Positions 8,060 to 12,180 of a stretch of 64,000 nt of DNA are shown here, piece after piece. Within the stretch, counting starts at the first letter, position 1; each line of letters begins with the position of its first letter. The position numbers and the translations under genes were made by a program. The notes beneath the pieces were generated by a model. The model did not search any database, had not been told where the DNA came from, and was given only the letters and a program-made list of their open reading frames with translations. This DNA comes from the human T2T-CHM13v2.0 reference genome, Homo sapiens, in assembly GCF_009914755.1 (NCBI RefSeq), contig NC_060936.1; one strand, 5' to 3'.

Positions 8060-8409
8060 GCAAAATAAAGCAGTGGGTCTCTAAAGTTCTCTTCAATTCT
8101 AAAATTCCATGATTTATCCATTTCACAGATGCAATGACTGAGATTCAGAGAGGTTAACTCATTTGTCCAAAGTTGCACCACTAATAATGACCAAACTGAG
8201 TCTTAGTGCAATTATCGTATCTCCAAATTTTTACTATTTCATAGTGCTCCAGGAAGTCTCATGCAGGGTTGAGAGCATGGATTTTGGAATCAGACTTCCT
8301 GTGTGTGAATCCTAGCTCGACTTACTCTATCTCTACCTCAGTTTTCACATCTGAAAAGTGAGATTTAATAAAAGTACTTATTTCATTGGCTTGTTATAAA
8401 AGTTAAAGG

Positions 8410-8692
8410 GGCCAGGCACGGTGGCTCACACCTATAACCCCAGCACTTAGGGAGGCCAAGGCGGGCGGATCACCTGAGGTCAGGAGTTCAAGACTAGCCT
8501 GGCCAACATGGTGAAATCTTCTCTCTACTAAAAGTACGAATATTAGCCAGGCATAGTGGTGGGCACCTGTAATCCCAGCTACTCGGGAGGCTGAGGCAGG
8601 AGAATCGCTTGAACTCAGGAGGTGGAGGTTGCAGTGAGCCTAGATAAGGCTGCACTCCAGCCTGGGTGACAGAGTGAGACTCCATCTCAAAA

Positions 8693-8735
<43 letters not shown>
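8410..8735 (+). mobile_element. AluS with (AAAT)n tail, inside a MIR (~8260-8770)
   Basis: ggccaggcacggtggctcac ... (aaat)n. Confidence 0.95.
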
Positions 8736-8819
8736 CAAGGAATGAAATACGTAACACATAAAAACTTAAAGAAGGTTATATGCTAAAAAACAGTTTACAT
8801 GCTGAAAAGCAGTTTATAT

Positions 8820-8930
8820 GTGAGCATCCGTGTTTTAAGCTCAACCACTACTGTGATGTCCTAGACATCTTCCCAAGAGAACTACGGTAGCATCCTTGTG
8901 TCTGTGGTGTCACTGACCTGCCAGGAACAA
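8820..8930 (+). pseudogene. Degenerate partial duplicate of PTPRO exon 7 (pseudo-exon fragment)
   Basis: Ungapped alignment to 9904-10014, 96/111 identical by hand count; TGG>TAG stop; native splice sites absent. Confidence 0.93.
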
Positions 8931-9856
8931 ACGTATAAATATGTAATGGGTTCCATATCTCTTTACTATAATTACTATCATTTTGTATTATCATTTCCCT
9001 TGCACCATTTACACCAAACCTTAGTCTGTCCTCCCCAGTAGAGCGACTTGCTCCTTTTCCTCTCCTGGATCTCAGCTTAGGAATACAGCATCAAATTAAG
9101 GAGCTGAGAATGCATCCTAAGCAAATAAATGGAAGTTTCACATTTGCATTTCAGCAGGGAATTTCTGTAGATAATAATCACCTTAACATGTCTTGAGTCC
9201 TTACTAGGTGTCAGGCACTGTGTTAAGAACCACTTTAGGAACATAAGAGAACAAAGCTAAGGATGGGCACTTCTGTGGAGACATTTTATGGTAAGGATCC
9301 TGTTGTGTTCCTCAAATTATCACCCAGGTTTTAGCCAGCTTCTTTAATTGAGCCAGCCTGTTGTGTGTTTCTTCTCTAATATAATCACAGCCTGCCTTTT
9401 CGTTCTCACTGTTGCCAAATTCAAATGTTTGCACAGGGTAGTAGTCGAGGCTGATTTGAATCTCAAAGTAATTATTCCTAGAGATCAAAGATCCTAGTAG
9501 CAAAGGAATAATAAGCCCTGATGAAATGCCACACTGCCACGCTCACTCTTTGTTAAAAGAGAAGTAAGTTTTCTCAGGTGAAGAATTTACCAGGATACTC
9601 TCACATGCACACGATGATTGAAGTGACACTTTTGTTTCTGCTGTTATTGCCGAGGCTGCTGTTTAGATCAAGGTGAGGTCAAGGAGTAGAGGGTTGCAGC
9701 TGGGCAGAGGACCTGAAGAGTTGCCAGTCCGACCGCCAATCTTTCTTTGAATCTCATTGTAAGGGCAAAAAGAAAACATGATTTTTTAAACCGGAATCTT
9801 TTATCTCAATCAGTGTAACGTGCAGCCTCCCCTGTGTTCCAATTTGAAATGTGCAG

Positions 9857-10053
9857 GTCCTTCAGGAGAGTGGATTGAAGAACTGACCGAGAAGCCGCAG
9901 CACGTGAGTGTCCACGTTTTAAGCTCAACCACTGCCTTGATGTCCTGGACATCTTCCCAAGAGAACTACAACAGCACCATTGTGTCTGTGGTGTCGCTGA
10001 CCTGCCAGAAACAAAAGGAGAGCCAGAGGCTTGAAAAGCAGTACTGCACTCAG
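9857..10053 (+). CDS. PTPRO: PTPRO exon 7: [19 protein letters not shown]...EKQYCTQ
   Basis: gtgcag|GT ... CAG|gtaaag; 197 nt, phase 1-0. Confidence 0.96.
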
Positions 10054-10677
10054 GTAAAGGAGAGGAAATGAGAATGGGCTCGCCGGTCCTTCCTAAGCAC
10101 AACCTTACAGGGCAATGCCAAGGAGGCAATTGTAGGAAGCCAGGCTGAGGTCTGCTGGGATGGGTGTGTTCTGTGACTGTTCCCAAGAGCCAGAGGGGCC
10201 AGAAATGACTGGCAATGGCTTTTTGATGGCACTGTCATCTCCCTTTCTCTTCAGAGGAGGGTCATGTTCTTTTTCATTCATTATTCAAGGGAATTTGCTG
10301 AGCATCTATGATGTGCCAGGTTCTAAGATAGATGTTGGAAATTTTTAAACATCCTGCTCTTGCAGAGCTTGTAATCTAATGAGAACAATAGATAAGTGAA
10401 CATATAATGACTGCACTGTATAGAATAAGGCCTCAGCTTAAAATGAATGATGAGAGTCCAGAGGAGTTCACGGAAGAAGGAGCTGAGCGTGAGTAACATG
10501 GATGAAGGGGAAAGAGGATTTGGAAACTGGTTGGAAAAAACATCACAGAGCAGGAGACAACCAAGCAGAGGGTTGGAGGGTTTTTTGTTTGTTTGTTTGT
10601 TTTACTTTTTTCCATTCTTTTAATTTTCATTTTTACTGTAAAAGTAACGCATTCTTGCTGAAAAAAAAAAAAACTTA

Positions 10678-11022
<345 letters not shown>

Positions 11023-12180
11023 CTACCCCCTCACCAGTCACAACTGAAAAGAGCTTTGAAGAATATATGGGAGACAGCTGTGCACAGAGGAGAGTGAGGG
11101 GCAGGCAGAGACGGTGTGCAACTCAGTAGTCCTGTGAGTGGCTAGCAGAAGGAACGCATATGCCAGACCAAACCCTAGTGAAACCGTGCAACTGGAGCCC
11201 AGAGTGGACCTTGCTCTCAAATGCCCTGAGAACCTGGGGCCCAGTCCTATATTTCTAAATTCTGGCCTTATGTTTTTACAAGGTCAAATGTGGTGGTTCT
11301 TGGTGTCTTACAAACACATTTTCTTCCCTAAAGGCAAAAGGAAAAAAGTAATTATCAATTCGTGTGGAGTACGTTGGAAATGTAATGCACAGAAAAGATG
11401 TTTGCTGTATGACAGCAATTTGGGATGTTTCCATTCCTCCCAGGAAAATTAAGCATTTAATGAAATTCAAACAATGATAAATTGTAAATTGATAAGATGA
11501 ATTCAGGAATCGTGTTCTTTGGAGCACTAGAAAGCCATAGAATGCTTGAGAATGAGGTGCCCCTTGAGTTGAATTAAATTAAGGAATAAATATGCTAAAC
11601 CGATTAACTAGTAATCACAGTTCATTGTGTAACTTATTAGCTTCCTTTCCTGAGCATACCCAAGATGACTGACTCATTACATTGACAGAAAAACGTGTTT
11701 TCCCCTACAGACCTTGACCTAGAACTCAACTGCTTCAAGGTACATTTCTCCCCTTGCCCTACTTAATGTACACATTATATATCTTTCACATAAGAATACA
11801 AAGGCTAAAGGTAGAGACAGATATTGTAAATTATCAATGAGCCAGAAAAGACTAGTCCAAATGTACTTTTACAATATCTTCTCAAAATGCAAATAGGAAA
11901 ACAGAACATGAAATATCCTATTCAGGATTATAAGCAAGAAGACCAATATTTAAAGGGGAGTGCAGGAAAGAGACCACCATGCTAGGCATCATCTCAGTTA
12001 CCACAAGACCTTTTTGAGATTTGTATAATATCATACCACTATAGTCCATTATGCCACTAAATAAATGTGTAGAAAAGCACCAATGGAAAGAAGATTACAT
12101 AAAGTGGAAATAAGACCATCTCAGGCTCAAAGGAACCTACACTATCATCTAGTTCAACCCTATTATTTAAGAGTCCATCA

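What the first reader, a model, noticed from the sequence alone, without database searches (positions are those of the whole stretch)
8776..8930. Hidden degenerate copy of exon 7 in intron 6, 1.08 kb upstream of the real exon
Seen: 8820-8930 aligns without gaps to exon 7 positions 9904-10014, 96/111 identical by hand count. It translates [36 protein letters not shown] against [37 protein letters not shown], so the conserved FN3 Trp is now TAG. Weak homology runs back to ~8801 (GCT GAA AAG CAG vs ACC GAG AAG CCG). The 5' junction has a 19-bp tandem repeat (8776-8794/8795-8813), and the copy abuts a MIR. Only exon-internal sequence is copied, with neither splice site and no flanking intron. Inference: a local templated insertion during break repair, possibly RNA-templated, rather than a tandem exon duplication. 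It could also mis-recruit exon-7 reads, primers or guides, or act as a gene-conversion donor of a nonsense codon.
Basis: partly seen in the sequence, partly recalled or inferred. Interest (0 to 1): 0.75.

Follow-up and report, generated by a model that had tools for sequence, protein, structure and literature searches.

The report
Decayed exon-7 fragment inside PTPRO intron
A 112-base piece from the middle of PTPRO exon 7 was copied long ago into the intron 1.1 kb upstream and has decayed since; it is real, but looks like an inert repair scar of a known kind.

Summary
The whole assembly holds only these two places (E 2.6e-29). Homology stops sharply at both ends. No intron flank, splice site or neighbouring exon is copied, and no diagonal near offset 1084 shows extra similarity. 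This rules out a simple tandem or whole-exon duplication and a processed retrocopy.

The 15 differences are 13 transitions and 2 transversions, spread evenly over codon positions. Eight of the nine changed residues, including Trp to TAG, sit where 117-120 of 120 tetrapod PTPRO orthologues agree with the exon, so the changes fell on an unconstrained copy. The copy carries the placental-type Tyr, so it postdates the marsupial split. It is more diverged than 16 of 22 Alus in the window.

Best reading: an old, in-cis templated patch insertion that is now neutral. DNA versus RNA template stays open.

The hazards named (gene conversion, mis-mapping) look small, since the longest identical run is 22 nt. 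The kind is known; this instance appears undescribed. Modest interest.

The parts
8820..8931 (+). Decayed copy of the interior of PTPRO exon 7 (112 nt; possibly to 8933 if C8932 is a substitution). In-frame TAG at 8862-8864.
9904..10015 (+). Source segment: positions 48-159 of the 197-nt exon 7 (9857-10053). It encodes residues 290-326 of the human protein P0012, at the N-terminal end of an FN3 domain. It starts at the exon's only GTRAG (GTGAGT, 9904-9909).
8776..8820 (.). 19-bp tandem repeat, 2.4 copies, directly left of the copy. The third, partial unit ends where the copy starts.
   Evidence: the right flank does not continue the array (589 of 1000 shuffles reach the score)
8803..8813 (+). 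Exact 11-mer TGAAAAGCAGT, shared with exon 7 at 10031-10041. That site lies 3' of the copied segment, so the match is out of order. Marginal.
   Evidence: 7 of 300 shuffles reach the score
8932..9160 (.). Right flank. It is unique in the genome at the sensitivity of the search, has no homology to the sequence after the source, and carries no poly(A).
8270..8402 (.). Old dispersed repeat (MIR-like by recall), split by the Alu and continuing at 8743 to about 8775.
   Evidence: 4 paralogues at 77-83% identity
8403..8742 (+). Alu with an (AAAT)n tail (8690-8735). It is younger than the exon copy and is not part of the event.
   Evidence: 6.8% non-CpG divergence from the local Alu majority consensus

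Best explanation
A single old mutational event copied 112-114 nt from the interior of PTPRO exon 7 into a break or stalled fork 1,084 bp upstream in intron 6, in the same orientation. The donor stayed intact. This is a templated patch insertion made in cis: a broken or nascent 3' end switched to the nearby exon-7 template, copied about 112 nt, and was rejoined. The template was either the DNA itself, which I favour slightly, or the nascent PTPRO transcript.

The patch never had splice sites or an open frame. It has since drifted neutrally and is a non-functional relic.

Shown: the pair, its uniqueness in the genome, the sharp ends, the absence of flank homology, and the unconstrained substitution pattern.

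Inferred: the mechanism, the date (after the placental-marsupial split; divergence between that of the younger and the older Alus in the window, roughly 50-100 Myr by recalled rates), and neutrality.
For: 1. Reality and uniqueness. 97 of 112 bases match, and there are only two places in the genome.

2. Sharp ends. 20-nt windows at offset 1084 score 14-19 of 20 inside the copy and 0-11 outside, against a background mean of 5.2. Gapped tests of both flanks are at chance: left 202 of 300 shuffles, right 111 of 300, 900-nt right side 15 of 60, 300-nt left side 171 of 300. Diagonals 1074-1094 show no excess, with identity 0.250 on diagonal 1084 against a null of 0.257 +/- 0.015.

3. Expected flank identity. 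If both intron flanks had drifted at the copy's rate (JC 0.148 per lineage), I would expect about 74% identity. That would be easily seen, and it is absent.

4. No retrocopy marks. No neighbouring exon is joined on, the 16 nt after the copy are not poly(A), and the only shared flank 6-mer is not flush with the copy and is at chance level (16% of shuffles; 40 of 360 control pairs).

5. Neutral decay on the copy. Differences fall 6:4:5 over codon positions, 13 transitions and 2 transversions, and both source CpGs are hit. Eight of the 9 changed residues are V, A, L, W, N, T, I or K in 117-120 of 120 orthologues.

6. Date. The copy keeps Tyr at the position where 34 of 120 rows have Y. All named rows among those are placental mammals; marsupials, birds and reptiles have other residues. 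Non-CpG divergence is 13 of 108 = 12.0%. That is above all 16 younger Alus in the window (5.1-9.7%) and just below the 6 older ones (13.2-19.6%).

7. The kind is known. Class 2 templated sequence insertions lack TSD and poly(A) (PMC5110952, passages read). Germline templated insertions from nearby templates are also described (PMC8421209, passages read).
Against: - There is no direct evidence of an insertion. No empty site or orthologous sequence could be examined.
- Junction microhomology cannot be read after this much decay.
- At 112 nt and 1,084 bp from its template, the patch is longer and more distant than the MMBIR-type insertions described in PMC8421209 (template searched within 100 bp; synthetic test insertions of 20-50 nt).
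- It is far nearer its donor than the experimental RNA-derived insertions, which mapped across 18 of 24 chromosomes (PMC5110952).
- The differences are mildly clustered: 7 of 14 gaps are 2 nt or less, p about 0.02. Plain neutral decay does not predict this.
- The out-of-order 11-mer is unexplained.
Confidence: 0.75

Rival explanations
1. RNA-templated patch from a splicing intermediate. The template was PTPRO RNA cut at a cryptic 5' splice site inside exon 7, or an excised cryptic intron ('exitron'). Reverse transcription ran off at the RNA's 5' end, or the piece was reverse-spliced into intron 6 of the pre-mRNA and then copied back into DNA.
For: - The copy starts exactly at the only GTRAG in the 197-nt exon (GTGAGT at 9904; 1 of 197 positions; any GT is 13 of 197).
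- If C8932 is a substitution, the homology ends at G8933 = G10017. The source is then GT...AG and 114 nt, which is 38 codons.
- A branch-like CTGAC lies at 9997-10001.
- The copy has the same orientation as the transcript, no TSD and no poly(A).
- Class 2 insertions are reported to be RNA-derived (PMC5110952).
Against: - This is a post-hoc coincidence.
- The left boundary is ambiguous by 1-4 nt, because G8820 and TGA 8821-8823 could belong to the third unit of the 19-bp array.
- A 3-nt end window contains an AG end at 29% of exon positions.
- The stretch before the putative 3' site is purine-rich, so the acceptor would be poor.
- No annotated transcript in the hub's table uses such a site.
- No paper holds both 'exitron' and 'PTPRO'.
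Confidence: 0.1
2. Remnant of a larger local duplication (period 1,084 bp, or a whole-exon tandem duplicate). Its other parts were later deleted or overwritten, leaving only the exon interior recognisable.
For: - Tandem exon duplication is common in animal genes, and thousands of intronic exon-like targets exist in human genes (PMC9013439, passages; PMC12343006, passages).
- The same orientation and the short distance fit.
Against: - A period-1,084 duplication predicts homology of 8932-9903 to 10016-10987. None is seen.
- The 47 nt and 38 nt of exon 7 on either side of the source are constrained on the donor side, so they should still match at about 87%. They do not.
- Two deletions would have to end precisely inside the former exon copy.
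Confidence: 0.08
3. A functional element: a cryptic or poison exon, a splicing decoy, or a regulatory sequence kept because it resembles exon 7.
For: It lies in the same pre-mRNA as exon 7. Some intronic exon-like targets show expression (PMC9013439).
Against: - There is an in-frame TAG, and 9 of 37 codons are changed at positions that are otherwise near-invariant.
- Differences are spread evenly over codon positions.
- Upstream of the copy lies A-rich sequence with no pyrimidine tract.
- The hub table annotates no exon here.
- The genome holds no inverted partner.
Confidence: 0.03

Closest known systems
Class 2 templated sequence insertions / TSIPs (Onozawa and Aplan; PMC5110952, passages read)
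   Same: A short block is copied from elsewhere while the donor is retained. There is no target-site duplication, no poly(A) tail and no L1 target motif, and the event is read as a patch at a double-strand break. Exonic, intronic and intergenic templates are all described.
   Different: Those donors are 'distant' and scattered over the chromosomes. Here the donor is 1,084 bp away in the same gene and the same orientation. This one is fixed and very old, not polymorphic. Junction features cannot be read.
MMBIR / template-switch templated insertions (MMB-TI; PMC8421209, passages read)
   Same: Copying from a nearby template in cis. Germline examples, direct-orientation examples and multi-template 'complex' events exist; the out-of-order 11-mer would fit a complex event.
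   Different: As defined there, templates lie within 100 bp and insertions are tens of nt. Here the insertion is 112 nt at 1,084 bp. Microhomology at the junctions could not be demonstrated.
Intronic exon-homologous segments / degenerate duplicated exons (PMC9013439: 4,027 intronic targets in human genes; Exonize 'intronic match', PMC12343006)
   Same: An unannotated intronic stretch homologous to an exon of the same gene, at over 80% identity and outside annotated repeats.
   Different: Those surveys frame such hits as tandem exon duplications. Here only the exon interior is present, without splice sites or flanks. PTPRO is not mentioned in the main text of PMC9013439 (0 occurrences); I did not see its supplements.
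Processed pseudogene fragment / L1-mediated retrocopy (class 1 TSIP)
   Same: Exon-only content in sense orientation.
   Different: No exon-exon junction, no poly(A), and no flush TSD.

Membership tests
Class 2 templated sequence insertion | The inserted block is a copy of another genomic sequence that is itself retained | tested here: met
   copy 8820-8931, donor 9904-10015 intact in the functional exon.
Class 2 templated sequence insertion | No target-site duplication of 5 bp or more flanking the block | tested here: met
   the only shared 6-mer (ATATGT) starts 10 nt after the end of homology. It occurs in 16% of shuffles and in 40 of 360 control pairs.
Class 2 templated sequence insertion | No poly(A) tail or cryptic poly(A) signal at the 3' end | tested here: met
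   the 16 nt after the block read as mixed AT-rich sequence, not an A run.
Class 2 templated sequence insertion | NHEJ marks at the junctions (microhomology, microdeletion, non-templated bases) relative to the empty site | not testable with these tools
   No orthologous or ancestral empty site was available. The tandem-array model for the target was not supported.
Class 2 templated sequence insertion | RNA template | not testable with these tools
   The block holds no exon-exon junction. The only hint is its start at GTGAGT.
Tandem exon duplication (mutually-exclusive-exon type) | The whole exon with both splice sites is duplicated | tested here: not met
   Only exon positions 48-159 of 197 match.
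Tandem exon duplication (mutually-exclusive-exon type) | The flanking intron is co-duplicated, giving a contiguous repeat unit | tested here: not met
   flanks and diagonals 1074-1094 are at chance.
Tandem exon duplication (mutually-exclusive-exon type) | The reading frame is kept | tested here: not met
   TAG replaces the Trp that is W in 120 of 120 orthologues.
MMBIR-type templated insertion | The template lies close by on the same molecule | tested here: inconclusive
   The distance is 1,084 bp in cis. That is local on a genome scale, but beyond the 100-bp search radius used in PMC8421209.
MMBIR-type templated insertion | Microhomology at each template switch | tested here: inconclusive
   At most 1-4 nt are ambiguous at the left junction (G, TGA) and an A-rich run at the right. 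There is no empty site to compare.
Processed retrocopy (L1-mediated) | Spliced exons joined, with poly(A) and TSD | tested here: not met
Exitron / excised cryptic intron as source | GT...AG bounds, and evidence that the segment is spliced out | tested here: inconclusive
   The GT bound is met. The AG bound holds only if one mismatch is allowed at 8932. Splicing cannot be tested here. No paper holds both 'exitron' and 'PTPRO'.

The most novel reading that the evidence does not exclude
The block is a fossil of an RNA-processing product written back into DNA. One route is a 114-nt GT...AG cryptic intron (38 codons) excised from exon 7 and reverse-spliced into intron 6 of the same pre-mRNA. The other is a cDNA that ran off at an RNA 5' end created by cleavage at the cryptic GTGAGT. 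In either case the product was fixed in the germline. That would be a rare natural trace of intron transposition or of splicing-intermediate-templated break repair in a mammal.
Probability: 0.05. Interest if true: 0.75.

Novelty: new member of a known kind. Interest (0 to 1): 0.27.

Why it matters
- It is a clean, datable example of a partial-exon patch insertion made in cis. Exon-duplication surveys would list it as a 'tandem exon duplicate' although it is not one. That is a useful caution for such catalogues and for gene predictors.
- Because the donor exon is almost frozen (97-100% protein identity among the placental rows), nearly all change lies on the copy. The copy therefore works as a small internal neutral clock and as a presence/absence marker for mammalian phylogeny.
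- If the boundary at the cryptic 5' splice site is not coincidence, the locus would give a testable case for RNA-templated repair or intron transposition.
- Practical risk for exon-7 assays is small. It is confined to oligos that lie inside the 22-nt identical run at 8864-8885 / 9948-9969.

Tried and rejected

2. A period-1,084 tandem duplication: no similarity on diagonals 1074-1094, nor in gapped tests of up to 900 nt.

3. My idea that the block interrupted a longer 19-bp tandem array, so that the right flank would continue the array and give the empty site: 589 of 1000 shuffles and 59 of 102 control 60-mers reach the score.

4. A target-site duplication (ATATGT): at chance, and not flush with the block.

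5. Using paralogues of the left-hand old repeat to reconstruct the pre-insertion site. The 4 paralogues align only to about 8775 and then diverge, so the repeat ends before the junction. blastn of the flanks against the window gave only weak hits.

6. Finding the orthologous region in other species. All of these gave nothing usable:
- protein search with the 80-aa minus-strand frame across the right junction: no candidate;
- HMMER search of 1.84 billion representatives with the 58-aa plus frame: 0 hits;
- scans of genome contigs and viral contigs for exon 7, in the hope of host-contaminant contigs: 1 unrelated bacterial locus, and none.
No mammalian genome other than the window's own was available.

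7. Earlier findings of this scan were not open.

8. Literature on this locus:
- 'exitron' + 'PTPRO': 0 papers;
- 'PTPRO' + 'exon duplication': 1 paper, on a haematological cancer, seen in the listing only;
- 'PTPRO' + 'pseudoexon': 1 review, which mentions only the splice-site mutations of nephrotic syndrome.

9. ADAR- or APOBEC-like bias in the differences: none evident. Exon-to-copy changes are A>G 4, G>A 4, C>T 4, T>C 1, plus 2 transversions, by my count.

Full report

The match extends one base further, to 112 nt at 87% (family D3, E 3e-34).

A search of the whole 3.1-Gb assembly with 8743-9100 returned only two places: the query itself and exon 7 (87%, E 2.6e-29). So this is not a repeat family, not a PTPRO paralogue and not chance.

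At 13% divergence it cannot be an assembly duplication artefact.

The replaced Trp is W305 of the human protein P0012, inside the Pfam fn3 match at residues 287-378. It is W in 120 of 120 aligned orthologues.

The 19-bp tandem repeat is real: 8776-8820, 2.4 copies, 84% matches.

**2. Where does the homology end?**

At the fixed offset of 1084, 20-nt windows score 14-19 of 20 inside the block and 0-11 outside. The background mean is 5.2 and the 99.9th percentile is 12.

Gapped local alignments of the flanks, tested against shuffles, are all at chance:

| Test | Shuffles reaching the observed score |
|---|---|
| Left 60 nt against the exon's 5' part plus intron | 202 of 300 |
| Right 100 nt against the sequence after the source | 111 of 300 |
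| 300 nt on the left (Alu removed) against 9500-9903 | 171 of 300 |
| 900 nt on the right against 10016-11500 | 15 of 60 |

A scan of diagonals 1074-1094 found no segment above the null 95th percentile on the right. Overall identity on diagonal 1084 was 0.250 against a null of 0.257 +/- 0.015.

The 'weak homology back to 8801' is therefore not supported.

The 47 and 38 exon bases on either side of the source are as constrained as the copied part, so their absence from the copy is real and not a product of decay.

**3. What it is not**

- Not a tandem duplication of period 1,084. That predicts homology of 8932-9903 to 10016-10987. Even if both sides had drifted at the copy's rate, I would expect about 74% identity. 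What is seen is chance level.
- Not a whole-exon duplicate. There are no splice sites and only exon positions 48-159 of 197 are present.
- Not a processed retrocopy. None of the 14 PTPRO exons in the window has any other non-self hit, and there is no poly(A) after the block.
- No supported target-site duplication. The only shared flank 6-mer (ATATGT) begins 10 nt past the homology and is at chance level: 16% of shuffles and 40 of 360 control pairs.

**4. Which lineage changed, and when?**

The 15 differences are 13 transitions and 2 transversions. They fall 6:4:5 over codon positions, and both CpGs of the source are hit.

A protein search with the 65-aa exon-7 peptide found 175 PTPRO relatives among 190 candidates. 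I aligned the 120 that were listed. The exon is remarkably frozen: 97-100% identity in most placental rows, 86-89% in marsupials, and 75% in an axolotl protein.

Eight of the nine residues changed in the copy are at positions where 117-120 of the 120 rows carry the exon's residue (V, A, L, W, N, T, I, K). So essentially all first- and second-position change, 10 of 75 sites (JC 0.147), lies on the copy. The copy evolved without coding constraint.

At positions that vary between vertebrate classes, the copy carries the placental combination. In particular it has Tyr where 34 of 120 rows have Y. All named rows among those are placentals; marsupials have N/R/S, and birds and reptiles have G/S and others. 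The block was therefore copied after the placental-marsupial split.

One weaker site points the same way. The copy has AGC (Ser) where the primates and rodents listed have S, while bat, seal, camel, cattle, pangolins and armadillo have G. The narwhal also has S, so this is weak evidence.

As a local yardstick I measured 22 Alus of the window against their own majority consensus. Sixteen show 5.1-9.7% non-CpG divergence and six show 13.2-19.6%. The copy shows 13 of 108 = 12.0% (my binomial SE about 3%), counted. It is thus older than the bulk of the Alus, including its neighbour at 8403 (6.8%), and close to the oldest ones.

Converting this to years rests on recalled Alu ages and primate rates. 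My estimate is roughly 50-100 Myr.

**5. Surroundings**

Left of the block lies the 19-bp array. Left of that is an old dispersed repeat, split by the Alu at 8403-8742. Four genomic paralogues at 77-83% identity align from about 8302 across the Alu site to about 8775.

I recognise a MIR-like motif there from memory. No repeat library was available, so the name is not a tool result.

The right flank 8932-9160 is unique in the genome at the sensitivity of the search.

I tested whether the block had split a longer tandem array, which would have given the empty site. It had not: 589 of 1000 shuffles reach the score.

**6. Mechanism**

What remains is a non-tandem, partial copy made in cis, with the donor retained and with no TSD or poly(A). 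This is the signature of a templated patch at a double-strand break or a template switch at a stalled fork.

The closest described kinds are two:
- class 2 templated sequence insertions (PMC5110952, passages);
- MMBIR-type templated insertions (PMC8421209, passages).

The block differs from the first in that the donor is only 1,084 bp away. By my arithmetic a random donor would fall that close with probability of order 1e-6, so proximity mattered. It differs from the second in being longer and farther from its template than the events defined there.

I cannot separate a DNA template (strand invasion or fork switching to the nearby exon) from the nascent PTPRO transcript. I lean slightly towards DNA.

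**7. Odd details**

(a) The block begins exactly at the exon's only GTRAG (GTGAGT, 1 of 197 positions). If C8932 is a substitution, the source is a GT...AG segment of 114 nt, or 38 codons, with a CTGAC 17 nt before the AG. This suggests an RNA cut at a cryptic 5' splice site, or an excised 'exitron', as the template.

I rate this low, about 5-10%, for these reasons:
- it is post hoc;
- the left boundary is ambiguous by up to 4 nt;
- 29% of 3-nt end windows contain an AG end;
- the acceptor would be poor.

(b) An exact 11-mer (8803-8813) matches exon 7 at 10031-10041, out of order. Only 7 of 300 shuffles reach the score. It could be a second small templated patch, or chance.

(c) The differences are mildly clustered, p about 0.02.

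**8. Known or new?**

Intronic segments homologous to exons of the same gene are catalogued in bulk: 4,027 intronic targets in human genes (PMC9013439, passages), and the 'intronic matches' of Exonize (PMC12343006, passages).

PTPRO does not occur in the main text of PMC9013439. I did not see its supplements or its genome-browser track, which may well list this hit.

Searches for PTPRO together with 'exitron', 'exon duplication' or 'pseudoexon' found nothing on this locus.

So this is a new member of a known kind.

**9.

With 87% identity and longest identical runs of 22, 18 and 16 nt, mis-mapping of reads and gene conversion of the TAG into exon 7 are unlikely. This rests on inference from general knowledge and was not tested. 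Only oligos or guides lying wholly inside 9948-9969 would see both sites.

**Verdict**

The block is an ordinary, though neat, molecular fossil. Interest 0.27.

Noticed in passing
window 9904-10017: The copied source segment is bounded by the exon's only GTRAG (GTGAGT). If one mismatch is allowed, it ends in AG. It is then 114 nt (38 codons), with a CTGAC 17 nt before the AG. This makes it a possible cryptic intron inside exon 7.
   Followed up: partly
window 8803-8813 and 10031-10041: Exact 11-mer TGAAAAGCAGT, shared between the left flank of the copy and the 3' part of exon 7. It lies out of order relative to the copied block. 7 of 300 shuffles reach the score.
   Followed up: partly
window 8820-8931: The 15 differences are clustered: 7 of 14 gaps are 2 nt or less, permutation p about 0.02. 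One whole codon is changed at all three bases (AAC in the exon, GGT in the copy).
   Followed up: partly
window 9859-10053 (exon 7 peptide): Exon 7 is unusually conserved for an FN3 segment. GEW.EELTEKP and [15 protein letters not shown] are nearly invariant from human to birds, turtles and axolotl. Possibly more than fold constraint acts on it.
   Followed up: no
window 9056-9075 and 10049-10068: A 20-nt inverted repeat, 80% complementary. An intron-6 sequence can pair with the exon-7 donor-site region (pair I3). It may be chance.
   Followed up: no
window 8270-8402 / 8743-8775 and 8403-8742: An old dispersed repeat (MIR-like by recall, with 4 paralogues found) is split by a younger Alu. The Alu tail is an (AAAT)11.5 microsatellite at 8690-8735.
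   Followed up: partly
one search hits P0002-P0007, P0025, P0033, P0036-P0038, P0041-P0043 and others: Short 'proteins' of 119-209 aa from metagenome sources carry vertebrate PTPRO exon 7 exactly. They look like host-DNA contigs called as bacterial ORFs.
   Followed up: no
L010 10001-10129: The only genome-contig hit for the exon-7 peptide is a 44%-identical stretch in a Marinicella litoralis contig (E 2e-5 relative to the candidates only). It is probably an unrelated FN3-like or chance match.
   Followed up: no
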